Made by a program: the position numbers and the translations under genes. A stretch of 64,000 nucleotides of DNA from the human T2T-CHM13v2.0 reference genome, Homo sapiens: the NCBI RefSeq assembly GCF_009914755.1, contig NC_060927.1. One strand, written 5' to 3'. Positions 15,060 through 54,297 of the stretch are shown piece after piece (within the stretch, counting starts at the first letter, position 1; every line of letters begins with the position of its first letter). The notes below the pieces were generated by a model. It had not been told where the DNA came from. It made no database searches and saw nothing but the letters and a program-made list of their open reading frames with translations.

Positions 15060-15690
15060 ATAGGGAATGTGAGATAAAGCAGCATAGTGAACTGGAAGGA
15101 CTAGAAGTTAGGAAACCAGGCTCAAGTCCTGGAATTTGTCTAGGTTTCCTTGGAAAAGTCAATTATTTGAGACTCACTTTCATTATCTATAAAATGGGTA
15201 TTGGGTATAAGGAGACAGATGATATCCCTACGTTTTTTGTTTCAAAATTATATTAGGCATAAATAAGACAGATATGCCAGTATTTGTCTTTCATTCTCTA
15301 AGGAGAGAGAGAAAGTTCTGGGATTTGGTGGCTACAAACTTTTCAACCACCAGAAAAGTACAAATGATAGTGGAATCAGGGTAAGTCTCTGGCCTGTATC
15401 ATACATCCTGCAATAACATTCAGAGATCACAAGCAACCTTCTGACTGTTAATTCTGTGCTTCAAGTACCTTGATTTCAGGAAGTCCTGACTCCTAGAAAA
15501 AATATATCTTTTATTATAAATTGATGAATTCCCTTCCAGCTCAGAAACCAGACTTCAGTGATTTCATTAGACCTGACAACTACAAAATGAATTAATAAAG
15601 TATAGTTCCTTAGTCCTCCAAATTTGAATTGCATAGTGAGCCTTATTCTGAAAGATCCTGACATTTATTAATTTCACAGACACTTATACC

Positions 15691-15713: not shown

Positions 15714-18428
15714 TGGTATTTCACATGCATTGAAGACTTACTCTGTGTAGCCACAAAGATAAACACTCTACATTAATTGTTTCATTTGCTGTCCACAATT
15801 TTCCAGAGAAACCAGGTGTTATTCAAGAAATCATCATCAAATACGTACTGAGTGCAGGGCATGTAATGGTGCTGCGGAATATAAAGATGAACAGGGGCCT
15901 TGACTCAAAGTAACATAATGTCTAAAAGAGGAGACAAATATTAAGCAAAGAGCCACAGAAGCAAATGTAACATTTACAACTGCATTAAATACTGCCTACC
16001 AGTGGGAGGTACATGGTGCTATTAAACTGGTTGCAGAGGAAAGATAAATCATTTTGAGAGAATTTTGTAATTTGTCCCAGGTCACAACCTAAATAAGACG
16101 AGTCTGACTTTTGATCCAGGACTGCTGACTTGGAAGCCCCATTGGTAACTACTATGCCATACCTCTTGTCTGTTTTCTCCATCACCGTTTGAAGTTTAAT
16201 ATGCCCGCCTTTTCTGTTGGCAATCTTCAAGTGGTCATTTTCCCACCATGACTGCTTGGCTCCAAAGTTTAGTTTTATTGACTGTTTTGAACATTCCCAG
16301 TGTATGGAAATTTTTAAAAGAGCCCTCAAGCCATTTCTGGAGTCTATGACACAGACTTTAGATCTCATTCTATTAAGAGTTTGATTCCAAGCCCACTTCT
16401 GAAAAGTGAAAGTATGTACTCAGTAAATTCCTGAAACTGACAAGAACTCTTTGGCTATTACTCAAAAATGTCTAATACCATGAACTAAAGTGGTGAGTTA
16501 TTTCCGCACTTCACACACAACCCCCACAATCCTTGAAAGTGGAGTACTAAACTATGTTAACCACTGGGTGCAAAACCGTTTCCCCTTAAAGATAATCTGA
16601 AATAATCTGATAATGATGGTGGATTGGAAGGCAGTGTTGATACAAATTATTTAAATTTTCTATGCTTAAATTTTCTTAAGTAAACACATTTTGTATACAA
16701 TAAACTATTCATGTAAGATTTTTCAATTAAATTTCACACTGTTAACTAGATACATTAGTAAACACAACTATTTCCTCTTACATTAACGTAGCTGCATTGA
16801 GTGTGAACTCACTTTTAGTTCTTTTTCCCCAAACTAGAGTCAGTTTTTCATATATGAACAATACATTTTTATGTGGGCAGGGCCAGAAAAAGCCAATATT
16901 CACCATGCATTTTACAGTTCCTGTAGATAAATATTAGCAGAAGTGTTGGCTTTCCATCCAGTTTAATTAAAAAAAAACACTTGGTTTTAAGTATTTTCCC
17001 CTACTTATATACAATATCATTATATAATGGAAATTAGCCATTTAAAACAACTTTAGACATTTTATTTTTTATGTTTTTATAATTTGAATTAATGGCAAAA
17101 ATAACTTAAAAGAGCTTTTTTTCCCCCTTTGGAATAAACAATCAATTTTGAAGAGAGTTCCCTTGAGCTGCTAAGAGGCAAACTAGTTAGCAAATCAAGA
17201 AGTGACCCCATGGACTTGCATAAACACTATTACACACCCAACAGGAAGGATTGTGACCAAGTAAATAGCACAATTCAAACTCAAACACCAGCTATACAAT
17301 TGCTCAGTCCCATTTAAATTGGTGACAAATGCCATTTAATCCCAAGTAACTGCTCTTTCATTCATCACGGTTCCCATATATCTCTATAATCTATTGTAGC
17401 AGAAGATTCCTAAGAAATCATTTTCTTTCTGCCTAGAACCAGTCAGCCCTATTTTAGAAATCCTAAAGTAAATACTTATAATCCCTGTCCTCTTTAAGTG
17501 ATCACTCAAAGAGGACATGACATGTTCTTTTAAGTGCCAAACAGCTGGTTCATTTCCCAATTAGAGGAGAGCACTGCAAATGATAGCTCTAAATAAATAT
17601 GTAATATAATCTACTGATAAGGACAATGTAAATATTTACAACAATTAGGGAAACAAATGTACACATATTTGAATATTCTCCAGAAGATGAAATCTATCCA
17701 TTGTAACATTTGTCAGAAAGAGTCTGTTTGGTGGGTTCTCCTCAGGAAGTTGTGCCACTTCGGTGTTTTGCTGTTAAGCTGCCTCAGGCTCTAGAAGGGG
17801 TGTACAGGAAGGAGATTCTTACGAAGGAGCCCCTTTCAATAAATTGCCTTCCAAAATGGAAGCTGGATTCCTTGCTCTCATGGTTTCAAATCTTGGATGG
17901 GGTGAAACTGGATGCCCCTTGCCCTCAACCCCTTGATGAGATGCACTGAAGGACTACCGAAGGGAAGGACAATACACAGAGTTCGCAGGGGCCTGGGCAA
18001 ACTGTCTTTCTAATTACATCCCTACATTAGTTTTCATATACACATGGTAACCACGAAGATTCAGAACAACGCTTCAGTTCAAGAATATTTTGTTTTCCAG
18101 ATGAGGCTGTATTCCTCCATAAGACCCATAAAAAGGAAAAATAGAACACTATGCTATACATTACAACATTGCAACCAATTTTATGCAAGCTCCTGTTGAA
18201 ATTTAGGTCACTTGCTCGGGCCTTAGTTTTCCCATCACTGAAAAGGGATAGTGCTACAGTCCTTTCCAGCTTCCTTCAGAAAATAGTTAGGACCTCTAAG
18301 TATTATACTTCAACTTAAAAAAGATGGACTATTCTCTGATTATAAAAATAATAAGTGATCATTGTAATACAAGGATGAATGAATAAGAAAACAAAAACAG
18401 CTTATTTTCCATTGTCAAAGTTTTCTCC

Positions 18429-41632: not shown

Positions 41633-42169
41633 TACAAAAGCGTCATCAGTTGTTGTAATATTAATAGTTTATTAAAAGTAATTATACTAGTGTTATCAGT
41701 ACTTATATTTCATCATAATAGTTAATTACTTTTTAATCCTTTGTGTCTTGGAGACTCCTTGAAGAGTTGTCTTGTTCGTGCCTATTTTGCGGAATTGGAT
41801 ATAAAAAGACAACAACCAAGCATTAAAGGAGAATGGTTTTCTGGAGGTTAAGAAACACAAGAACTCTGACACTGCCCATAATTAAGGGTGTGCTTTTGTC
41901 CACCACCATAATTTCCTAAATTCCTAATGCTGTCTTGAGAGCAGCGTTCTCGTGCATGGTAGGAAAACGCTGCCTGGTACTCCTGGCTCTGAAAGGGCCG
42001 TTGCATTGTGTTACACGAAGACTGTGACTTCAACCCTCTGCCGCAGCTGCTACCAAGATCTCTTGCTTTCTCCAATTATAATGTTGGTCTTTCCTAGATT
42101 TTTCTAACGGGGAAAAAATATTCCTTTAATTGATTCCTTTTTGTTTGATTCTCTTAAAGCACAGAGGCA

Positions 42170-42600
42170 TTGGGTTGTAGGCTGTGTTTTTTGGGAAACG
42201 AACTTTAGGACAAATATTAGCATTCAGGAAGCTTATTAGGGAGTGCTCCAGGGATCAACACTTGTGGATTGGAATGGGACAGAGGTGGGGTGGGCAGAGG
42301 GAGAAGTTGGGCTGTGTTACAGTCTCAACAAAGGCCTCAGCTGATCCCATTGGAAGCTCTAGAGCTGGGATGGCCCTTCAGAATTGTCCAGAGTTGCAGA
42401 GAGGGAGGATGGCCTTTATACACTGGCGTTTACTAGTTTTTGGCTGAGGCTACCCCAAGAAGGGCAAGGTGCTCTCTTCAGCAGAGTCTTTTTGCAAAGA
42501 GGGTCAACAACCAAGTGTTGGCTTCTGACAACACTCCCAGTAACTGGGAGAGTAATCCCTTCATTCCTGCAGGGGTTTCTGGATGGTATGGCATGTCTAC
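42170..42600 (-). mobile_element. LTR16-family ERVL LTR
   Basis: gggagtgctccagggatcaacac...gggcagagggagaagttgggctg...aaggcctcagctgatccc...agagctgggatggccc. Confidence 0.8.
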
Positions 42601-43829
42601 CATCTCATGGGTAAAGTCTAGAGGAGAAACTTGCTCAAGTCAATGCTCTGTTCTTCATTTCAAAATATCATTGTAGTAACGTTCTGAAGCAGTGTGAAAG
42701 TTTAAGTTTGGTTTAATTAAGTCATTTGGTTTAATAGCTTCATTCAACCATCTTATGAATATCAAGACCTGCAAACCCTCTATATGTAAGATACTGTTGT
42801 CTGTGTGAGTGAGATACAAAAACAAATTCAAGGCATGAGTCTTGTCCTCAGAGAGCTTATAGCATTTTGGGAGAATTCAGGAATATGAGGTATAAGGTAA
42901 AATGAAAGGTGACAGTACTGGGATGATACAGCGATTCCTGGTCCTAAGAAACCATGGTTCAGCGAACTCAAATGCATACAGAATTCTCATTTTATTTTTT
43001 AAGCCATTGCCCTTTATAAGTTTATTAATAACTGGTATTAGTAACAATCATGGCTCAATTTCTGCTGCAAGAAAGCCTAGAGTCAGAAACAGAATGTAGC
43101 TCTGTGGCAAAACTTGGAGACTGGTGTCATGGCCAAAATTTGTTGTTACCAATAGACACAGAGTCATCTGAAATCCCCTGCCTTAGTTAACCCAGCTCTT
43201 GCACCAGGATCCATTACATTCTTCTGGATGTCACTTCCCCCCCACCCCCGTGATTGTATATAATTTAGCAGGATATTATAATACATTGCAGATATTACTC
43301 GTGGGTCCCATTGAATAAAACTACCACATTAAAAATGTACTTTGGCTCACAAATGGAATGCAGCTTCAGCTTTTTCACCTGCAAGTCAAAAATGAGGTCC
43401 CTGTACAATTAAAAAGTGAATGTGGGACTTTTTACTGGTGCCTGGAGGATTGTGAACCAAGTTCTAGTTTATGAAAAAGTATATGAGGAATTCAAATGAG
43501 GGTAAAAGAGATCTCATTCAGAACACATAAAATACCAAAATAATTGCTTCTGTGAGACATACATGATGGCATATACCACTGCACAGGATTTTGTAGATTT
43601 TAGGAAATACTGGACATCAAATTTTGGTTGTCCCCAATGAGACAATTCTGCACCAATGACCAATGGTTTCATTCACTTATCCATTTATTTATTCATGTAT
43701 TCATTCCTTCACTCAATACAGGACTGCTGTGTTGTGCATCTCCAGGCAGCACCGTTCATATCATTGTCTATGTGGATGAAGCCCCTGGAGCTTAGCAGTA
43801 CACAGCCTGCGCAACCACATTCAGTGGCC

Positions 43830-44560
43830 TTAACTAAACAATATTTACTGGATGAGTGTGTTCCAGGTGCTGTTCCAGGCTAGGCATTGAGAATAGAGCA
43901 GTGAGCAAGACAGACTTGATCTTGCCATCATGGAGATTTATTTTAGATAAGGGCCTACAAAAAATGAATAATTACAAAAATCACATAAATATGAATTTAA
44001 ATAAGTGCTATGAAGTATAGGAACAGGATAGTCTATGGACCTCTGACAGTGAGACCTACTATTCTGGACTGGCAGGAAAGAAATTCTGAGGAAGCAGTAT
44101 TTAAGTTGAAGCCTGAAGACTAAGTATATTTATATTATGTGAATACTGGGACTGGGGAGAATGTTTCAGAAAGAGGGAACAGTAAGCAGTTCAGGCAGGA
44201 GCACAGGATAGCCAAGGAATTCTGGCCGGGTGCAGAAATGGGAGATGGAGGAGACGGGGCTAGAAAGACAGTCAGGCACCAGACCTTTCAGGGTTTTGGA
44301 GAATGTGTTGACAATTTTGGTCTTCATCCTAAGAAAAATTGCAAGACATTGGATGTCCTATGCAAGAGAGTGACCTTTAGCTACGTCGCACTATCTGCAT
44401 TATGGAGAAGGCATTTGACATGGACAAGAACATATATGGTTGACAAGATGGGGGCCGTTGCAGTAACACAAGTGAGAGGTAGTGGTGGCTTGCTCTGGGG
44501 CAATGCCAAAGAATATGATAAGTAGACAGATCAGAGAGATTTTCACATGGAATGTCGTGC
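43830..44560 (-). mobile_element. L2 fragment
   Basis: aacaatatttactggatg...gcagtgagcaagacagac...taagtgctatgaag...tttggtcttcatcctaag. Confidence 0.7.
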
Positions 44561-45299
44561 CCTAATCTCACTCTTTGTTATTTATTGGCCAGTAGCTCTG
44601 AGTTATTTTGACCTTTGAGTGCTCTCAGGCAATATTAATTATCAACTAGTGTGAGTGACTCTGTGAAAGGCAGAATTATGTGAGTAAACATCAAAGATCA
44701 CTGAAATCAAGTATTGCATTTGGCTATTAATATATTACATAGCTAATAAAACAGTCATTGCCCTTTTATGTATCAAAAGCCCATTTGTCAACCTCAAATT
44801 TAAGCCCTCTGTCCTCTTCCATATCATGTGGTACCTACGTCTATGGGATTGTGGCAGAGATTCAAAGAGAGAATATATCTAAAGTATTTTGCACAATGCC
44901 TGCAAGATCATACTTATTATTAACTACTTTTTACTACTGTTATTACTCATGCCTATATTACGTTGGGGTTTAGGATGAGATTTAATTACATCCCTTTTCC
45001 TCTAAGTTGGGTACCAAAATTTGAGTAAACAGATACAGGTGTCAAACCAAGAGAGATGAAATTATTAGTTTTATTGCTGATATTGCTAACTTCAAGAATG
45101 TGGATTGGCTTTTCTGCCAAATCTAGTGATTGGTACAGATAACAATATGAAACCTGTATATCTGTACATCATAATTTCTCCTTTGCCTCCCTCACAAAGG
45201 GTAAGAGCAAGACATGAACCCTGGTCCTCACCCAGGTATACTTATATCAGGGAAAAACTGAGGAGAACATGCTCCTTCCTCAGGTGAATCACAGAGCAG

Positions 45300-45520
45300 A
45301 GAAGTTGAGAGCCTGAATCCTGGAGCTAGACTTTGTGAGTCATCTTGGCTGTGGCATTCATCAGCCAAGCAGCAATGCAAGTCTCTCAGTGTTTCTGTGA
45401 CTCAGTCTCCTCATCTGTAAAATGGGAATGATAGTCGTACTACCTGCTAGGACAAGTGTGAGGATTGAATGAGTGCAAATATTGATCTCTGGAACATAGA
45501 AACTCCGATATATGTTTATC
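45300..45520 (+). mobile_element. MIR
   Basis: ctcagtctcctcatctgtaaaatgggaatgatagt. Confidence 0.8.
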
Positions 45521-46464
45521 ATTATCAATATTTATGAGGAGAATTTAGAAAGCACTGCTCCATACATGCCTCTTCAAACCCCCTAACAGAGAGGTTATTC
45601 CTCTCCCCAGGGGAAGAGCCAATGAGATGACTGGAAGAGAAGCATTGCTCCCATACTTCTCCTTCCTGAGGGGTGGGGTGTGAAGCCCTCCCTCTCTGCT
45701 GAACATTGAGCAGAAGGAAGGCAAGGTTTACTTTCCCCATATTCTATTATTTGACATAGTTGGCCTCCAACAACCTGACCTCTGCAGGTCCCTGTATCTA
45801 CCTGGAGAGAAAGAGCTTTGTCATATTCATCAGTATATGCTTCCATTCTATAGGGCCACACACTGGGCTTTGCATCCAGCTGGCACTCAAGCAGTGCTTG
45901 ATGGGTTTGAAGATGAGCATCTTTCTCTGAGATATTGTGTTCTTATTGGATTAAATAGTGAGGGGCTGCTGCCTGGTAGCAATATACTGGCCCTGAGTGG
46001 GAAGTGCGAATGAGGTCCCCTTGGTCTACCCCCTTTCTCTGGGCCCTCTGGCCATCTGCATCCTGATTTACACCCTGAAATTTTAGGAAACCGGAAGCTA
46101 ACTAAAACTTTCTTAGCGCAGGGCAAACACTTTCTACATTGGCTTTCCTCACTTGTGCCTTTTTCCTGATCTAGAATGTTGGGCTTCTCTGGCAGAAGCA
46201 GAAATAAATAATTGAGAAAAAGCTTATTATCAGATGAACACATTATGCATTGATTTGTTCCTGCATGTGTATTCTCATAAGTTAGGTTTAATTAAATGTA
46301 CAATATAGTGGAAGGATTAAGTGAAATATGGGATAGCAACTGGGCAGGATATTAGGAGGTCACGGACATTAGTAAATCGGAAGATTGAGTAGCTACACAG
46401 AAAGCATTCACAAAATGATACTGAGTAAAGCCTAGCACTGAACTGTAGTAATAGTAATACTACA

Positions 46465-47209
46465 ATCCTAACATGAGTCATACACGTTTCCGTCATTATA
46501 ATTGTTACTTCCCAAAATAATTGTTATCTGTCTGCTGTATATTATCCACCTCCCCTAATTGCAACGTGTGTTAAATGGGACTTGGTCTCTTTTGTTGGTC
46601 TCTATAGCCCCCTGGCCTTGTGGCAGAGTTTGGCAAACTATGGCCAACCAGCCAAATCTGACCCACTGCCTGTTTTTTGTAAACAAAGTTTTATTGGAAC
46701 ACTTCCAGACCCACTGGTTTACATATTGTTCGTGGCTGCCTATGTGACAAAACAGTGAAGCTAAGCAGTTGTGTCGGACACTGTGTGGCCCTCACAGCCT
46801 ACACCTTTTACTATCTGGTCCACTATGGAAAATATTTGCTCATCCCTGGCCTAAACCACTGACTGACAAATATTAAGTGCTTAACAAACACTGATAGAAT
46901 GAAGGAGTGGAAGAAGAAATGAATACACATGGATACAGAGTGTAAGAAAATGCAGATAAATCAAAACTGTGAAAGGAATAGGTCTGTGCTTAAAATTTTT
47001 TTCTTTTTAAACCCTGTTGTATTTTGTTTAACAATATAGGTTGAGTATCTCTGATCTAAAAATTCAAAGTCTGAAATGCTGCAAAATCTGAAACGTTGTG
47101 AGCACCACTTGTTGGAGTATTTTGGATTTCAGATTTTCAGATTACGGATGCTTAACCCATAAGTATAATGCCAATATCCAAAAATATTCAAAATCCAAAA
47201 CATTTCTGG
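46465..47209 (+). repeat. Left arm of the ~750-bp inverted duplication (probable donor copy)
   Basis: Reverse complement of 49654-50426; same mosaic of L2 end, MER58A, unique sequence and Tigger4a. Confidence 0.95.
46624..46848 (+). mobile_element. MER58A within the left arm
   Basis: cagagtttggcaaactatggcc...aaagttttattggaacac...tttactatctgg. Confidence 0.9.
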
Positions 47210-47243
47210 TCCCAAGCATTTTGGATAAGGGATACTCAAACTA
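47037..47243 (-). mobile_element. Tigger4a with both TIRs, TA-flanked, 21-bp internal deletion
   Basis: ta|taggttgagtatc...ctggtcccaagcattttggataagggatactcaaacta|ta. Confidence 0.88.
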
Positions 47244-49216
47244 TATATATATTTTAAAAAGCAGAAACAAAATTTGAAAAGTAATGCTACCACCTATGTA
47301 AATTATTGAGAATATAATTTGGAGGTCTTGTGGTTCAAGAATTGCTGCAACTCTAGATTACTGAGTGGTTTGCTCATGTTTTTGTTTTTAGTTCAAAAGC
47401 AAAGTGCCCTCATCACTAATTGCCCTTCTAATTGTAAGTTAACAGTGGGGAAAGCAAGCCCGTGGGGATTACTTGCAAAGCTATTTTACAGCAGACTACG
47501 TGGGTTGTCCACACATGAATGGAACAGACCCAACTTGTATAGTAACATAAATAATATTGACCGACCTGGTCATTCATCAAAATTAAATTGATATGCGGCC
47601 CCATGAGGCTTGGTTGTCTTAGTCTCTCCTCTAGACATAACATTTATCTGATAACTCACAGAGCTTCCAGACCAGCTCCAACCTCCTCCTTAGCTTAGCT
47701 CTTCTTACTTTAGCCTTCATAATAAGCCTTCTTTATTTAAAACTCTATTAGCCAAGAAAAGATTAATGAGCCTTTACATTTTTAAAAGATCAAAAAGAAA
47801 AAAAACAAAGAAAGAAAATAGGAGAGACATTTTATTTGTTTCACACAAGGACAAAAATTGGTCTCGCTCACTGACTTCATCCAGCTTCATGCTCTTGTGA
47901 ATCTGGTTGGCTCTTTTGTACCTATTTGTTCATTTGCTTAATGGTCCTTTGGGGCCTCTCCAACTAGTAGCATAAGCCAGAAGAGGAGAAGCAATCTATT
48001 TTCCAAAAGGGTGCATTTAAAAAAGTCATTTTGCCTACTCCATTTCACAAAGAAACAATGGTTGTAAGAGCTCTGGGACATTAATTTTTCACAGGCAAAA
48101 TATTCATCTTAATGCATATAGCCATAGGTTCAAAAAGTAATGTTAAGCTTGTGTATGTTGGCCACAGTAGTGCTATTCAAGACCTCCTCCTAGTTCCCTG
48201 TTGCAAAAGACTTTTACCCCACTGTGTTTGGTGTTTTTCTTTGCATTTCAAAGCCCTGGAATCAAATGCAATTGAGGTTGCATGCTGGATTTTGGGGGCA
48301 CGTATGAATTTACATGCATTTATGTCTTTAATGAATATTAAAGTGGGGTTATTTTTCTAAAGCAACTCAAAACAGGGTGGAAAATCTGACTTTTCTTTGT
48401 TTTAACCAGAACTTGGTAAAATAGATGAAACACCCTGGAAAGAGACATGGTCACTTGAGTGACCTCATTAAATATGGCTACCCTGTCCCTCCCAGAACTC
48501 CCATTTTTTGCAGTTAGCCATTAACATGGCTAGGTTAAGTAGCAACAAATTATGATGAAGGTGCAACTTGCTCTTTTATTTGGGAGAGGAAATAAAATTA
48601 TTCTGAAGCTCAGGATGATACAGCTCTTTGTAAGGTTTGCTTCATAATTGATCTTTCTTGAGCGAGAGGTGAAATGTCTTGGACTGAACAAGATGAGGCA
48701 GCAGGCCTGATAAAATGGCACTGATGTATATGAACACATAGAGAAAAGAGGCCAACTGCAACAAAATGCCAACAGACACAAAAGTCATGCCACCGGAAAT
48801 GGAGCAGAAATGCTATTTGTGAATCTGCTTCATAAAGGACATTTTTTTTAAGCTAATAACATCTTTCTATACAATTTCACATGTACAATATCACTTAAGC
48901 CTCTTTTTGCTCCATATCTAAAGCTGCAGGAAGTCCAGCAGCCGTGCACTGTGCTTTTATTAGGTTGAGTATATCCAGATGATTTTAATAAAGTTTTAAA
49001 AGGACATTAGTTTCCTGCTATTTCAATGAAAACCACTTGCAAGATGAATTTAAAGCAATAGGTCTATTTCTTGTCAACACATGCCCTTTTTTAATGCAAA
49101 TATGCCACCCTTTTCTAATAACCAACAAAACTACACACAAACACAATTATCAGCTGCATGTGACATGGGAGAAAAATATCATCCTCATAAATGTTTAAGG
49201 ATGAAGAGATGGTAAG

Positions 49217-49653
49217 AGTGATAGATGCCACTGTATGCTGCTCGGATTCCTCCTAAAGGACTGGGGTTCCTCTGACCTCCAACTGCTGGAAGCTCAGAGT
49301 CTTGGATACTGTAGTCTCTCTCTCTGGGAGTTGTCCTCAGCTAAATGGTGGCTTGTCTCAGGCCATGTGAACTCTCTAGAGCTCACAATCCAGTAACTGG
49401 TCAAAATGTGCATGGGGTGGAAGGGCAAGGAGAGGTGTTTAAAGACCCAGTCCCCTGATGCCAGATGACCTGAGGGACCATCCTAGTTTCAGAGCTTCCC
49501 TTGGGAGCAACTGAAGTCCGTGTTGTGACTGCATTATAATTCAGCATCTCCTTCTGCCCAGTTCTCCTTCGTGCAACCTCCCACTGAGCTTCATCTCAAG
49601 AGAATTCTTCCCCTCAACCCTATGCCCTCCCCCTGCAAATCTCCACCTCAGAG
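49217..49653 (+). mobile_element. LTR16-family LTR broken at its 3' end
   Basis: gggaccatcctagtttcagagcttccc...tgttgtgactgcat...ctccttctgccca...tgcaaatctccacctcagag, then an abrupt switch to Tigger4a. Confidence 0.78.
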
Positions 49654-50426
49654 CCAGGAATATTTTGGATTTCAAATATTTTTGGATTTTGGAACATTTG
49701 AATTATACTTATGGGTTGAGTATCCCTAATCTGAAAATCTGAAATCCAAAATGCTCCAGTGAGCATTCCCTTTGAGCACCATGCTGGTGCTCACAATGTT
49801 TCAGATTTTACAGCATTTCAGATTTTGGATTTTCAGATTAGGGATGCTCCACCTATATTGTTAAACAAAATATAACAGGATTAAAAAGAAAAAAAAATCT
49901 AAGCACAGTCCTATCCCCTTCACAGGTTTGATTTATCTGCGTTTTCTTACACTCTGTATCCACGTGTATTCATTTCTTCTTCCACTCCTTCATTCTATCA
50001 GTGTTTATTAAGCACTTTATATTTCTCAGTCAGTGGTTTAGGCCAGGAATGGACAAATATTTTCCATAATGGGCCGGATAGTAAAAGGTGTAGGCTGTGA
50101 GGGCCACACAGTGTCTGACACAACTACTTAGCTTCACTGTTTTATCACATAGGCAGCCACGAACAATATGTAAACCAGTGGGTCTGGAAGTGTTCCAATA
50201 AAATGTTATTTACAAAAAACAGGTAGTGGGTCAGATTTGGCTGGTTGGCCATAGTTTGCAAACTCTGCCACAAGGCCAGGGGGCTATAGAGGCCAACGAA
50301 ATAGTCCAAGTCCCATTTAACACACATTGCAGTTAAGGGAGGTGGATAATATATAGCAGACAAATAACAATAAGTTTGGGGAGTACCAAGTACAATGAGG
50401 GAAACGTGTATGACTCACGTTAGAAT
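49654..50426 (-). repeat. Right arm of the inverted duplication (derived copy): truncated Tigger4a 49654-49855, MER58A 50044-50267
   Basis: Reverse complement of 46465-47209; ORFs 46559+ and 50145- share QTMANQPNLTH...EHFQTHWFTYCSWLPM. Confidence 0.95.
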
Positions 50427-50456
50427 CATTCCTTCATGGGAAGGAATATTCTTCAC

Positions 50457-50485
50457 CATCTTAGGTTGGGTTCCCTGTTCACTCT
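50457..50485 (-). mobile_element. Displaced, inverted LTR16 3' terminus
   Basis: Reverse complement agagtgaacagggaacccaacctaagatg matches the LTR16 end ...cagagt...gggaacccaacctaagaca. Confidence 0.65.
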
Positions 50486-51159
50486 TATCACATCTTAGTG
50501 GGTACTTTTCCCCTGGACTTTCTAAAATATTGAACCACAGTACTCAGACACTCATTGTGGCCATCACTGACCCCTGAATATAAAGAGCATAAGTTGGCAA
50601 CCACTTCTCTTAATAATTTTTATGGTCCCTTTTTGATTAAAAATTCTATGATGCTCTAAGCCAGACAGTTCAAGATTCAGTTCTTGCATGGTTTATTCAC
50701 CTTTTCTGTATGTGTTTATGCAGCCTGTGTCATTGTTATGAAAGGATCAAAGACATGGGACCCAATTAAGAAGGGCAGGCATTTCAGCCTGAGGGATGAG
50801 AGGGCAAAGGGAGAGTAGGGTAGGGACAATTATCCGGGCAGAAGGCACTGGCATACAGGATAAATCCAAGATAGATCCAAGAGGCTGTGATGCTTTGAAG
50901 GGAACTCTGTATGTGGCTATGTGTTATGGGAAAGGCAAGGGCAGAGATGGGGTAGAAGAGTTAAAGCTGGAAAGGCTGAGTGGTAACTATGTACCAATGA
51001 GCCTTAAAGCATGTATCCTAAGAACAAGGAAGAACCAGTGAAGAGTTATAAGTAGAAGAAGTACATGATACATTTTACACATTGAAAACATCACTCTGAA
51101 GATTGGACAGAGAATGGTTTGGTTTGGGGACAGAGAGGTGAGATAAGACCTTGTACCAA

Positions 51160-51460
51160 TCATCATTAGTATTACTAAAAATTGTATTAAAAGATTGGCA
51201 TCTTTTTTTTCAAGGTGGGTCATGAAATTAATGTAATGGAGTGTGGCCAGTACTTAAAAAAAGGAAGAAGAAAAAAATAAAAGAGTATAAACATTACAGC
51301 ATCTGGCACATGTAAGGGGACTGGTTCACGAAAGTCTTATGTAGATTACTGTGAGTATGTAGATTATTGTGTGAGCTCGCGTGGTTGTGTGTGCATTTTT
51401 ACTGGGTAATGACTTCAAATATATTTCTATATGTTGAGGTCAAAGAAGTTTGCCCAGCAT
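51160..51460. mobile_element. Old hAT-Charlie-like element
   Basis: gggtcatgaaattaatgtaatgg...tactgggt...atatttct...ggtcaaagaagtttg. Confidence 0.45.
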
Positions 51461-52570
51461 GACTCCAGACCTCAGGAAGCCTTACTAATGCCTGCTACAA
51501 GTCACCAGGGGAACCAGGTGTCAGCCATCAACAAAGCAGCACAAATCCATCTCTCTCACTAGAAAAATGGGCTCAAGAGAGCAGGTCCTATTGCTGATAC
51601 TTAAGAACCTACCAACAAGTTCAAATTAAAAAGATTTGCCTCAAACGACCCAGAAAGGGACTGCTATGAAAAGATGCATTGGTTTAATGTATTTCATGCT
51701 TGTCAGTGGCATTTCTGGACCATCTCTGTGGTGTTAGATATTTGTGGTCTCCTCAACTTCCTGTGGTTCAGTCACTTTTTTGCTTAGCATTTACCATGGG
51801 AGCGCAGGGACAAGCCATCTGTACAGGAAACTTCAAAGATGTGTTTTGGTTTACATTCTGTTACAATGAAGTCAATGCAAATTGTTTTTATGTTGTTTTT
51901 TTAAAAATTTGTTATTTTACTTGTTTTTGGAAGGGGGATAATAAGGGGAGTGAACAAGGATTGACCATGGTTTATAATATGGTGTGGCCTGACCTTAAAA
52001 AAAAAAAAAGAAGTCTAACAGATGTTAATGTTGATTCGTTGTTTTCAGCAGGAATCTACATTTTGCCATTTTTCAAATTCTACTTGGATGCAGATTTGTC
52101 TTAGCAGAGGAAAATGCTAAATTTCCATTTAGATATATTCGCTTTGCCAGTGGCAAGTTGCCATACTCTTGTCCATTTCTTATTTTTTTCAGAAATAGCA
52201 CAAACACTTCCTTGAACTTGAGGCTGACCTGAACTTTATTTGATGCCCTTTCAAAGGCCAACTGAGAGGCATTATTCCTCATGGAGAAGGCACTCAACTA
52301 GAGTTTAGAGTGAACCAGAAGGAACCTTAGGGTGAATATAATCCAATTCCTGTTAATTTTGCAGATGAGGCAGTTGAGCTTCAGAGAAGCAATGTGACTT
52401 GCCCAAGGATACGAGCTCACTGGTGGTAGAGCTGGGCCTAGACACAAACTCAGGACTAGACAAGGCTCTACTCAGTTGGCCTCACTGCCTCTTCAAATGC
52501 TTGGCCGCATCTCCTTCAGATGGCAGTTTCATGGAAAACACCGGCCATGCAAATCAGATAAAGGTCAGCA

Positions 52571-52636
52571 TGAATTTGGTTACTGGCAAGAAAATTTCTG
52601 AACTGAATTTTGTTACTGGCAAGAAAATTTCTAAAC
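52571..52636. repeat. 33-bp tandem duplication (2 copies)
   Basis: tgaatttggttactggcaagaaaatttctgaac / tgaattttgttactggcaagaaaatttctaaac. Confidence 0.92.
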
Positions 52637-52915
52637 TAATTGATATTGTAGAATTGGACATTTTATTCATTGGTTATTTTTATTATCATAGTAGGAGTCT
52701 CCGGACAAAATTGGTAGTTTATTCACGGTACTTACTATTTCAGATAAGGTGGAAGAAAAAGTTGCCTAAGGATAGTTAATGTTTCTTATCTGATATGCAG
52801 AATATTTTCCCCTTTGAATTATGATTACTGAAAGTGCATAAATTATATCTGGAGGAAATATTCAGATCATGCACTGGAGTTGGAATCAAGGAGGGAAGTT
52901 TTTAATAATTTAGAC

Positions 52916-53126
52916 CAGGGTTCTTAAACTCAGCATTATTGACATTTGGGACCAGACAATTCTTTGTTATGGGGGCTGTCTTGTTATCATAGGATGTTTA
53001 ACAGCATTCCTAGCGTCTATCTGCCAGAAGCCACTAACACACCCCTAGTTGAAACAACCAAAACTGTCTGTAGACCTTGCCAGATGTCCCTTGGGAAGGT
53101 GAAATAGTGTGAGTTGAGATTCACTA
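52916..53126 (-). mobile_element. MER20
   Basis: MER20 antisense with a perfect 8-bp TSD atttagac (52908-52915 / 53127-53134). Confidence 0.92.
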
Positions 53127-53980
53127 ATTTAGACAATTTGGGTGTTTAAAATGTAAGGGGATAACTCTTTTATTAAAAGTGAGGGTTCTTATTTTTTCTG
53201 ATTACAAATGTAATAAATACTTATATTTTTAAAATACGGAAACACATTACTGAAATAATACCAAAATGCCAAGGTATTACTTTGCAATTTGGTATTATTG
53301 AAAATGACTGAAAGGTCAGTCTCCACATGTTGTCACACTCAACAAAAGCACAAATCTGACATCCAAAAATCAATGAAAATAAATTTAACTTTCCACCAAC
53401 ATCTCCCTAAGAGATATGGAGACAGGAAATTGTTGTTCATGACCACCGAAATGCCCTCAATTCCCTCTGCACCATCTATTAATTGCTTTCATCACAGCAG
53501 ACAACAGTTACTCTTTCACAATCTCTCTTCTCCCTCCAACTTGACCCCACATTCCGACCCCTGCTAGCTGTCCTGTCTCCTCTCCCTGCCTATGCTTTAG
53601 CACCTATCAACTCATTTCTTCTTCACGTGGTTCTCTGGCCTTCCCAGCTAGATCCCTGTAAACTCTTCTGTTTGGCTGACTTACCCATTACCTAGATCCA
53701 CACAAGAAAAGACCTGGAATCTCCCTTGGAATGTCCTGAAATGAGGCAAGTTGTCAACCTTTATATAAGACTATTTTTTATCACAGTCATATTATAAAGA
53801 AGAAAATAAGAATCAGCGGCAATTCTACTAACAAACCACACAATTAACAATTTAGTAGATACCTAGGTAGGTGGTTTTAGCACATAGAGCTGTAAGAAGG
53901 GAATCAAGGTGAAAGTAGGTCGTTTGCCTTCCCCAGGAATGAAGGAAAAATAAGATAATTTGACCTTTGCTTCAAAATCC

Positions 53981-54297
<317 letters not shown>

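What the first reader, a model, noticed from the sequence alone, without database searches (positions are those of the whole stretch)
49640..50490. Three-junction rearrangement scar: LTR16 tail relocated and inverted beyond the duplicated arm
The LTR16 stops at ...ctccacctcAGAG (49653). Its expected end (gggaacccaacctaaga) appears on the - strand at 50457-50485 and begins with the same AGAG. The layout is LTRhead | rc(arm) | rc(~30 bp flank) rc(LTRtail) | downstream. A perfect 8-bp hairpin, attccttc-atgg-gaaggaat (50428-50447), abuts the middle junction. Possible origins: serial template switching (FoSTeS/MMBIR); duplication followed by an ~830-bp inversion; or, if the spacer is flipped, reinsertion of a circularly permuted copy, as expected from a circular DNA intermediate.
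Basis: partly seen in the sequence, partly recalled or inferred. Interest (0 to 1): 0.7.

Follow-up and report, generated by a model that had tools for sequence, protein, structure and literature searches.

The report
Ancient LTR broken by inverted duplication
An ancient retroviral LTR in an intron of ADAMTS9-AS2 was cut near its end when a nearby 750-base stretch was copied in backwards and the LTR's last 29 bases were flipped: an ordinary but well-preserved scar of a complex rearrangement tens of millions of years old.

Summary
A solo LTR of the LTR16 group (ERVL/ERV3) runs from about 49217 to 49653 (+) and stops two bases after a family landmark. Arm B (49654-50426) is an inverted copy of 46465-47209: 744 ungapped columns, 90.7% identical, and the only other copy in the genome. 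The stretch 50457-50485 (-) resembles the 3' end of the same LTR family. 15 of 29 fetched copies place their tails there. Its aggregate score ranks second of 6396 places in the window. The 8-bp hairpin is real and extends to a 31-nt near-perfect palindrome across the middle junction.

So the three-junction layout is real. The LTR is roughly 100 My old: eutherian in print, about 66% pairwise identity among copies. The duplication dates to roughly 25-60 My. That date is blurred by uneven arm divergence, 5.8% in the centre against 13% at the edges.

Which process made it cannot be decided without primate outgroups, which these tools lack. The candidates are one multi-switch replicative event or a duplication followed by an inversion. 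A circular intermediate is unlikely. The subfamily is unresolved. This is an ordinary kind of scar and the interest is low to moderate.

The parts
46465..47209 (+). Arm A, the source copy of the duplicated segment. It holds unique DNA, a repeat, and most of a palindromic MITE-like element.
   Evidence: Inverted-repeat pairs I1-I4; pairwise alignment; the only other genomic copy of arm B. The MITE homology to 4 of 4 independent copies runs on past 47209, to 47239-47288.
47210..49216 (+). Spacer between the arms. It starts with the last ~34 nt of the MITE and ends with the LTR's 5' flank.
   Evidence: The stretch 48800-49216 is unique in the genome at the tool's sensitivity.
49217..49653 (+). 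Head of the solo LTR (LTR16 group, ERVL). It is complete from its 5' end (about 49213-49218) to 2 nt after the CTCAG landmark.
   Evidence: 28 of 29 family copies score z>5. blastn hits cover 49440-49653. Alignments of the 5' half with L025, L022, L024 and L023 start at 49215-49218. There is a 14-nt exact match and an 80-column alignment with the annotated HCP5 LTR16B.
49654..50426 (-). Arm B, the inverted copy of arm A, cut off inside the MITE at its left end.
   Evidence: 744 ungapped columns, 90.7% identity, K2P 0.100, 3 gap events. MITE homology starts exactly at 49654 for 3 of 4 independent copies.
50422..50452 (.). 31-nt near-perfect palindrome (13-bp stem with one bulge, 4-nt loop) lying across the middle junction.
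   Evidence: DNA fold -9.3 kcal/mol, z -3.25, 1 of 200 shuffles as good. Base rate of 8-bp hairpins: 18 in 64 kb.
50427..50456 (-). 30-nt stretch read as the LTR's original 3' flank, now inverted together with the tail.
   Evidence: It adjoins the tail's natural terminus. An 11-of-12 match joins 49207-49217 with rc(50450-50461); 447 of 20000 random pairs do as well. No other source for it exists in the window.
50457..50485 (-). Tail of the same LTR, inverted. It begins with the AGAG that also ends the head.
   Evidence: No family-like sequence lies directly upstream of it on the minus strand.
49653..49654 (.). Junction 1: LTR head | arm B.
   Evidence: No microhomology is visible in the present letters.
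50423..50427 (.). Junction 2: arm B | flank. It is ambiguous over 2-5 nt and lies inside the palindrome.
50485..50486 (.). Junction 3: inverted tail | downstream DNA.
   Evidence: The stretch 50487-50900 is unique in the genome.

Best explanation
A solo LTR of the LTR16 group (class III, ERVL-like) inserted here roughly 100 million years ago. It read head-tail-flank on the plus strand.
Much later, about 25-60 million years ago, a complex rearrangement with three junctions hit its last 30 bases. A ~750-nt segment lying 2.4 kb upstream (arm A) was copied and placed in inverted orientation directly after the LTR head. The LTR's last 29 nt and about 30 nt of its 3' flank ended up inverted beyond that copy.
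I take this most likely to be one replicative event with serial template switches to nearby templates (FoSTeS/MMBIR-like). The 31-nt palindrome at the middle junction would then be either the stalling or annealing site or a snap-back product.
Shown: the layout, the homology of the arms, family membership of head and tail, and the palindrome. Inferred: that head and tail were once one LTR, that the 30-nt flank once adjoined 50486 onward, and that all three junctions arose at once.
The element does nothing today that I can show. It lies deep in an intron of the lncRNA ADAMTS9-AS2, more than 8 kb from either annotated exon.
For: Arms: (90.7% over 744 columns; only two copies in the genome).
Direction of copying: the MITE runs on past arm A's right end in 4 of 4 comparisons but starts exactly at arm B's edge in 3 of 4.
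Head: 28 of 29 copies score z>5, and hits end at 49652/49653.
Tail: 15 of 29 copies align on 50452-50477; scores beat the controls; rank 2 of 6396.
The tail starts where the head stops, within 8 nt, and both carry AGAG. It ends at the family's natural terminus, which fixes at +28 to +33 after the landmark by end-to-end alignment with the annotated LTR16B2 3' piece.
No LTR body precedes the tail on its own strand.
The flank and the LTR's 5' flank share an 11-of-12 match (p about 0.02).
The palindrome sits at junction 2.
Complex events with inverted duplications, 2-5 bp microhomology and nearby templates are the stated hallmarks of MMBIR (PMC2621351, abstract read). Short template switches create inversions and hairpins (PMC5453318, abstract read).
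Against: No outgroup sequence could be consulted, so the ancestral state is inferred.
Only 20 of the tail's 29 nt align firmly. Single-copy comparisons are weak (2 of 29 rank it first). An equally high aggregate score occurs at 46161-46220(-).
Direct comparison of the tail region with the annotated LTR16B2 3' piece is not significant (score 6.0; 195 of 200 shuffles reach it).
Junctions 1 and 3 show no microhomology apart from the AGAG overlap, which fits end-joining as well.
A clean 5-bp target-site duplication cannot be read. 2 of the 8 5'-end alignments inspected start 40-50 nt further upstream.
A weak pyrimidine-rich, family-like signal lies on the tail's strand at about 50713-50900 (8 of 29 z>3 against 3 of 29 in a control).
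Arm divergence is uneven, so the date is loose.
Confidence: 0.6

Rival explanations
1. Two or more separate events by breakage and end-joining. First a duplication placed a direct copy of arm A after the LTR's 3' flank; this may have been a 3.3-kb tandem duplication whose head-to-tail joint is junction 2. Later came an ~830-bp inversion with one break in the LTR (a 4-nt stagger filled in, giving AGAG twice) and the other at the arm copy's end. If the first step was a tandem duplication, the rest of the second unit was deleted.
For: Read on the minus strand, tail-flank-arm is the order expected at a tandem-duplication joint. Junctions 1 and 3 are blunt in today's letters, and the 4-nt overlap fits a filled-in staggered break. 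What followed the flank in the ancestor is unknown, so a flanking deletion needs no coincidence.
Against: It needs two or three fixed events within 1 kb. In the simple form, the inversion break must fall exactly at the arm copy's edge. The 31-nt palindrome across junction 2 is left as chance (0.018 expected).
Confidence: 0.25
2. The 29 nt at 50457-50485 are not the head's own tail. They would be a chance resemblance or a scrap of another LTR of the group, and the head's real tail was deleted when arm B came in.
For: Tail-like places without a recognisable body occur elsewhere in the window: 46161-46220(-), 17701-17760(-) and 15101-15160(-). There is a weak family-like signal on the same strand at about 50713-50900. 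Only 20 nt align firmly.
Against: The fragment begins within 8 nt of where the head stops and ends at the family terminus. The signal at 50713-50900 is not confirmed against the well-kept copy at 42100-42640 (z 1.5; 9 of 100 shuffles reach it). Weak alignments place that signal's own 3' part around 50640-50700, 150-200 nt away from the tail. The flank next to the tail resembles the head's 5' flank.
Confidence: 0.1
3. A circular DNA intermediate, covering arm A through the LTR flank and closed at junction 2, was reopened inside the LTR and reinserted as a circularly permuted copy. The spacer may later have been flipped by recombination between the arms.
For: Tail-flank-arm is a circular permutation of arm...tail-flank, and junction 2 is the joint such a circle would have.
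Against: Only about 830 nt of the supposed 3.3-kb circle are present. The spacer and the LTR head occur once in the genome. The original tail and flank would have had to be deleted with exactly the copy's bounds. The arms share at most 59 nt of unbroken identity today, which is poor substrate for flipping.
Confidence: 0.03

Closest known systems
Solo LTRs of the LTR16 group (ERV3/ERVL; Repbase pairs LTR16A-E with ERV3-16A3_I and LTR16 with HERV16), for example the annotated LTR16B/LTR16B2 of the HCP5 locus
   Same: The window's LTR shares a 14-nt exact block and an 80-column alignment with the HCP5 LTR16B fragment. Its family aligns collinearly with the LTR16B2 3' piece up to the terminus. The family is large (294 pattern hits against 16 controls) and old (about 66% pairwise identity). 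In print it is eutherian-wide (PMC4419796, table passage) and ERVL class (PMC5753468 and PMC2689173, passages).
   Different: Direct similarity to LTR16B/B2 is weak (z 3-4), so this is another subfamily, which I could not name without Dfam or RepeatMasker. This copy is split, with its last 29 nt inverted about 800 nt away.
Complex genomic rearrangements by FoSTeS/MMBIR (PMC2621351, abstract read)
   Same: It has several junctions, an inverted duplication from a template 2.4 kb away, and little or no homology at the junctions. Junction 2 is ambiguous over 2-5 nt.
   Different: It is a fixed, tens-of-millions-of-years-old event of under 1 kb, not a recent copy-number variant. Two of the three junctions show no microhomology today. 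Single-event origin is not shown.
Short-range template-switch mutations, the four-point model (PMC5453318, abstract read; PMC7954356, start of abstract in the search listing only)
   Same: These events create short inversions and hairpins in place. The 58-nt inverted tail plus flank and the 31-nt palindrome are of that size.
   Different: Here a 750-nt distant copy is inserted as well, which is beyond the short-range model.
Inversions flanked by inverted duplications from staggered breaks (recalled from Drosophila work; no paper read here)
   Same: There are inverted duplicate arms around a unique spacer, and a 4-nt overlap at the LTR break.
   Different: In that model the duplicated arms sit at the ends of the inverted segment and the interrupted element stays whole. 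Here the LTR is split and the small inverted piece lies outside the arms.

Membership tests
LTR16 group solo LTR (ERVL/ERV3) | Sequence homology to copies annotated as LTR16 | tested here: met
   Direct comparison with the HCP5 3'LTR16B fragment gives z 3.8; 1 of 200 shuffles reaches it, and a 14-nt exact block is shared. With the LTR16B2 5' piece, z is 3.2 (3 of 200). Indirectly, 28 of 29 family copies match the head. 10 of 29 match the LTR16B2 3' piece and 11 of 29 the LTR16B fragment at z>3. Caveat: the copies were picked with a pattern that holds a 13-mer also present in that fragment.
LTR16 group solo LTR (ERVL/ERV3) | Assignment to a subfamily by a curated profile (Dfam/RepeatMasker) | not testable with these tools
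   No repeat library is on hand. The RefSeq masked-repeat table lists only 47176-47285 in 44000-54000 and gives no names.
LTR16 group solo LTR (ERVL/ERV3) | Defined termini flanked by a short target-site duplication | tested here: inconclusive
   The 5' end falls at about 49213-49218 from 4 alignments, but 2 others start at 49169 and 49176. The 3' terminus is fixed. The flanks share 11 of 12 nt straddling the termini; 447 of 20000 random pairs do as well. No clean 5-bp duplication can be read.
LTR16 group solo LTR (ERVL/ERV3) | Solo state: no proviral interior next to it | tested here: met
   Both flanks (48800-49216 and 50487-50900) are unique in the genome at the tool's sensitivity.
LTR16 group solo LTR (ERVL/ERV3) | Eutherian-wide age | not testable with these tools
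   From print only: LTR16A and LTR16C are listed as 'Eutherians' (PMC4419796, table passage). Crude support comes from about 66% mean pairwise identity over 616 ordered pairs.
FoSTeS/MMBIR complex rearrangement | Complexity: several junctions, with an inverted duplication | tested here: met
   Three junctions and a 745/773-nt inverted copy.
FoSTeS/MMBIR complex rearrangement | Microhomology of 2-5 bp at the junctions | tested here: inconclusive
   Junction 2 is ambiguous over 2-5 nt. Junctions 1 and 3 show none in today's letters, only the 4-nt AGAG present on both LTR break ends. About 10% later divergence blurs this.
FoSTeS/MMBIR complex rearrangement | Templates lie nearby | tested here: met
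   The source is 2.4 kb upstream and is the only other copy in the genome.
FoSTeS/MMBIR complex rearrangement | All junctions made in one event | not testable with these tools
   This needs primate orthologues.
NAHR inversion between inverted repeats | Breakpoints lie inside pre-existing homologous inverted repeats | tested here: not met
   No homology was found between the sequences joined at junctions 1 and 3. The arms are the product of the event, not its substrate.
Reinsertion of a circular DNA intermediate | A circularly permuted copy in addition to the original | tested here: not met
   The head, the spacer end and the tail are each present once. Only 830 nt of the supposed circle are present.

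The most novel reading that the evidence does not exclude
The locus is a fossil of a single replication accident with four template switches, including a snap-back that wrote the 31-nt palindrome. The two arms have since kept exchanging sequence by gene conversion (centre 5.8% against edges 13% divergence). If so, a sub-kilobase MMBIR-type event and its later concerted evolution can both be read from one fixed human locus and dated across primates.
Probability: 0.25. Interest if true: 0.4.

Novelty: new member of a known kind. Interest (0 to 1): 0.3.

Why it matters
It matters little for biology. The site is deep in an intron of a lncRNA, and no function is indicated.

It is a clean example of how a repeat annotation can hide a complex rearrangement: a truncated LTR here, and a 29-nt orphan LTR scrap on the other strand about 800 nt away. 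If primate orthologues bear out the date, it is a rare-genomic-change marker for a primate clade. It would also be a natural example of a small multi-junction event with a palindrome at a junction. The uneven divergence of the arms may be a small case of gene conversion between inverted repeats.

Tried and rejected
A DNA search of the genome with the whole LTR head found only three short relatives. A search with its 5' part found only itself. I therefore gathered copies with a two-motif pattern: 5 exact hits, then 294 hits against 16 controls at up to 3 mismatches. 29 non-self copies were fetched of the 294.

Single tails searched against the whole window were too weak: 2 of 29 ranked the tail site first. 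I therefore used the mean of the pairwise scores.

The top-scoring place, 46161-46220(-), was considered as the head's true tail and rejected. It carries its own poly(A)-signal-like stretch upstream, sharing a 10-mer with the copy at 42121-42240. It would therefore duplicate the head's last ~35 nt. No body was found upstream of it.

A possible fourth LTR on the minus strand at about 50713-50900 was examined. It was not confirmed against the copy at 42100-42640 or against the head (z 3.8, but not collinear with the placements).

I tried to test the old adjacency of spacer end, flank and downstream DNA through an older repeat spanning them. Both flanks are unique, so there is nothing to test. 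Neither the 30-nt flank nor 50486-50640 has another source in the window. No repeat spans arm A's left edge.

Direct comparison of the tail region with the annotated LTR16B2 3' piece was not significant. The RefSeq masked-repeat table was no help.

In print, no paper in the library holds both ADAMTS9-AS2 and LTR16. In the looser search, none of the 8 listed of 813 papers holds ADAMTS9-AS2. Supplements were not asked for and none bears on a claim here.

My names for the arm's repeats (a Tigger/MER2-type MITE, MER5A) are recalled and were not tested. The substitution rates (1.0-2.2e-9 per site per year) and the human-monkey divergences are also recalled.
Full report
THE REGION. I read 46200-52000 and searched 46000-54000 for repeats. 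Four collinear inverted-repeat pairs join 46465-47209 to 49654-50426 at 87-92% complementarity. A global alignment of the two arms gives 744 ungapped columns, 675 matches (90.7%), 51 transitions, 18 transversions and 3 gap events covering 30 columns. A genome search with 49654-50500 finds the whole arm only once more, at arm A. The other hits cover only query positions 1-249 and are copies of a palindromic MITE-like repeat, with 2876 first-look candidates of which 40 were scored. A search with 46300-46620 returns only itself and arm B, with the homology starting at 46465.

WHICH ARM IS THE SOURCE. Against four independent MITE copies, arm A's homology runs on past 47209 into the spacer, to 47239, 47246, 47280 and 47288. 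In arm B it starts exactly at 49654 in 3 of 4 comparisons. In the present orientation of the spacer, arm A therefore sits in its original context and arm B is a copy cut off inside the MITE.

THE LTR AND ITS NAME. A DNA search with 49215-49653 found three weak relatives. A two-motif pattern from the head found 5 exact places against 0 in the control. At up to 3 mismatches it found 294 places against 16 in the control. I fetched 29 non-self copies.
- 28 of 29 score z>5 against 49217-49653.
- blastn hits from 13 of 29 cover 49440-49653 at 62-73% identity and end at 49652/49653.
- The 5' half also aligns with some copies. The alignments with L025, L022, L024 and L023 start at 49215-49218, and two others start at 49169 and 49176.

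No repeat library is on hand, so I took an annotated LTR16 from print. PMC6562477 (passages and its Table 1 read) places a 3' LTR16B fragment and a 5' LTR16B2, split by an Alu, at the HCP5 locus. Using the gene table I fetched only those LTR stretches. The paper's primer-binding site and the Alu were where expected.
- The window's head shares a 14-nt exact block and an 80-column alignment with the LTR16B fragment (z 3.8; 1 of 200 shuffles reaches it). It aligns weakly with the LTR16B2 5' piece (z 3.2; 3 of 200).
- The family copies link the two more firmly. 10 of 29 match the LTR16B2 3' piece at z>3, and the best alignments run to that piece's last bases at family positions +28 to +33 after the CTCAG landmark.
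- 11 of 29 match the LTR16B fragment. Part of that comes from a 13-mer that my pattern selected for.

I conclude that this is an LTR of the LTR16 group, subfamily unresolved. Print puts LTR16 in ERV3/ERVL (PMC5753468, table passage; PMC2689173, table passage).

THE TAIL. In the 29 copies, the 45 nt after the landmark were printed as they stand.
- The window stretch 50457-50486(-) scores a mean of 8.1 against the true tails. It scores 5.3 against flanks 200 nt further on, and shuffled tail scores 5.2. 15 of 29 exceed the control maximum (p 9e-5).
- In one search, 20 of 29 best local alignments within rc(50430-50530) score at least 9. Of these, 15 fall on 50452-50477 at family positions +6 to +40, and 5 fall elsewhere.
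- The mean of the 29 pairwise scores over 6396 60-nt chunks of both strands ranks 50421-50480(-) second (z 5.8). The overlapping chunks rank third and fifth.

The tail therefore belongs to this family and ends at the family's terminus. Its firm part is 50458-50477. The 8 nt before it, including AGAG at 50482-50485, are assigned by position. The head ends ...CTCAGAG at 49653, so head and tail overlap by 2-4 nt and nothing substantial is missing.

RESULTS AGAINST THIS READING.
- Single tails rank the site first in only 2 of 29 cases.
- The best aggregate place is 46161-46220(-) (z 6.2). It has its own poly(A)-signal-like stretch upstream, so it is a scrap of another LTR and cannot be the head's tail. 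It still shows that tail-like scraps without a recognisable body occur.
- Places at 17701-17760(-) and 15101-15160(-) also score high and were not followed up.
- A weak, collinear, pyrimidine-rich signal lies on the tail's strand at about 50713-50900: 8 of 29 z>3 against 3 of 29 in a control stretch. It is not confirmed against the well-kept family copy at 42100-42640 (z 1.5). Weak alignments put its own 3' part near 50640-50700.
- The tail region does not match the annotated LTR16B2 3' piece directly.

JUNCTIONS.
- Junction 1 (49653|49654) and junction 3 (50485|50486) show no microhomology in today's letters.
- Junction 2 lies within 50423-50427 and is ambiguous over 2-5 nt.
It is part of a 31-nt palindrome, 50422-50452, whose outer 5 bp reach into arm B's last bases: -9.3 kcal/mol, z -3.25.
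- Perfect 8-bp hairpins with 3-8-nt loops occur at 18 distinct places in 64 kb, so 0.018 are expected within 10 nt of three junctions.
- The 30-nt flank next to the tail and the head's 5' flank share 11 of 12 nt (49207-49217 against rc 50450-50461). 447 of 20000 random pairs do as well. This hints at one insertion site but is not a clean target-site duplication.

AGES.
- LTR. Mean identity over 616 ordered pairs of copies is 65.7%, and the window copy is 62-73% identical to others. By my own Jukes-Cantor arithmetic this is about 0.23 substitutions per site per lineage, on the order of 100 My at a recalled rate of 2.2e-9. The figure is crude because it mixes subfamilies and uses aligned segments only. 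Print lists LTR16A and LTR16C as eutherian-wide (PMC4419796, table passage).
- Rearrangement. K2P between the arms is 0.100, or 0.088 without CpG sites. That gives 20-50 My over recalled rates of 1.0-2.2e-9.
- The divergence is uneven: 13.0% on the left, 5.8% in the centre and 13.5% on the right (Fisher p 5e-4). If the centre was homogenised by gene conversion, the edges give 33-63 My. The longest unbroken identity is 59 nt.

MECHANISM. The layout needs three novel joints.
- One replicative event with serial switches to templates within 3 kb explains all three, plus the palindrome at junction 2. It matches the hallmarks given for MMBIR (PMC2621351, abstract) and for short template switches that create inversions and hairpins (PMC5453318, abstract).
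- A two-step path cannot be excluded: a duplication whose joint is junction 2, then an inversion with a filled-in 4-nt staggered break in the LTR, perhaps with a flanking deletion. The blunt junctions 1 and 3 even favour it.
- NAHR is excluded as the maker, because there is no homology at the joints.
- A circular intermediate is unlikely, because the head and the spacer exist only once.

COMPARISON, NOVELTY AND LIMITS. The element is a known kind of repeat, and the scar is a known kind of rearrangement. What is particular is how cleanly both halves of the LTR survive. No paper in the library holds both ADAMTS9-AS2 and LTR16. No primate outgroup, no Dfam and no pangenome data could be reached, so the ancestral state, the subfamily and the number of events remain inferred.

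Noticed in passing
window 42150-42600 (-): A second, better preserved copy of the same LTR family. Up to 23 of 29 copies hit it by blastn and 29 of 29 score z>5.
   Followed up: partly
window 46166-46232 (-): A tail-like stretch with its own poly(A)-signal-like stretch upstream and the top aggregate tail score in the window (z 6.2). No recognisable LTR body lies upstream of it. It is probably a decayed 3' scrap of another LTR of the group, about 230 nt left of arm A.
   Followed up: partly
window ~50713-50900 (-): A weak, collinear, pyrimidine-rich resemblance to the family's 3' third: 8 of 29 z>3 against 3 of 29 in a control. It is not confirmed against the copy at 42100-42640. It may be a very decayed LTR or a composition effect.
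   Followed up: partly
window 17701-17760 (-) and 15101-15160 (-): Further places with high aggregate tail scores (z 5.1 and 4.3). No family body was found by blastn.
   Followed up: no
window 46465-47209 vs 49654-50426: Divergence between the arms is uneven: 13.0% / 5.8% / 13.5% for left / centre / right, Fisher p 5e-4. This could be gene conversion between the inverted arms or constraint on the centre.
   Followed up: partly
window ~47107 and ~47169 (arm A) vs arm B: Arm A lacks 21 nt and 8 nt that arm B keeps inside the palindromic MITE, so arm A has had deletions since the duplication. The MITE's own 8-bp hairpin is at 49773-49793.
   Followed up: no
window 52571-52636: A tandem pair of 33-nt units, 94% identical (family D4).
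   Followed up: no
L012 (HCP5 locus, chr6 of the same genome): The GRCh38 coordinates of the paper's table, shifted by the offset of the HCP5 gene start, landed exactly on the LTR16B2, its nested Alu and the quoted primer-binding site in T2T-CHM13.
   Followed up: yes
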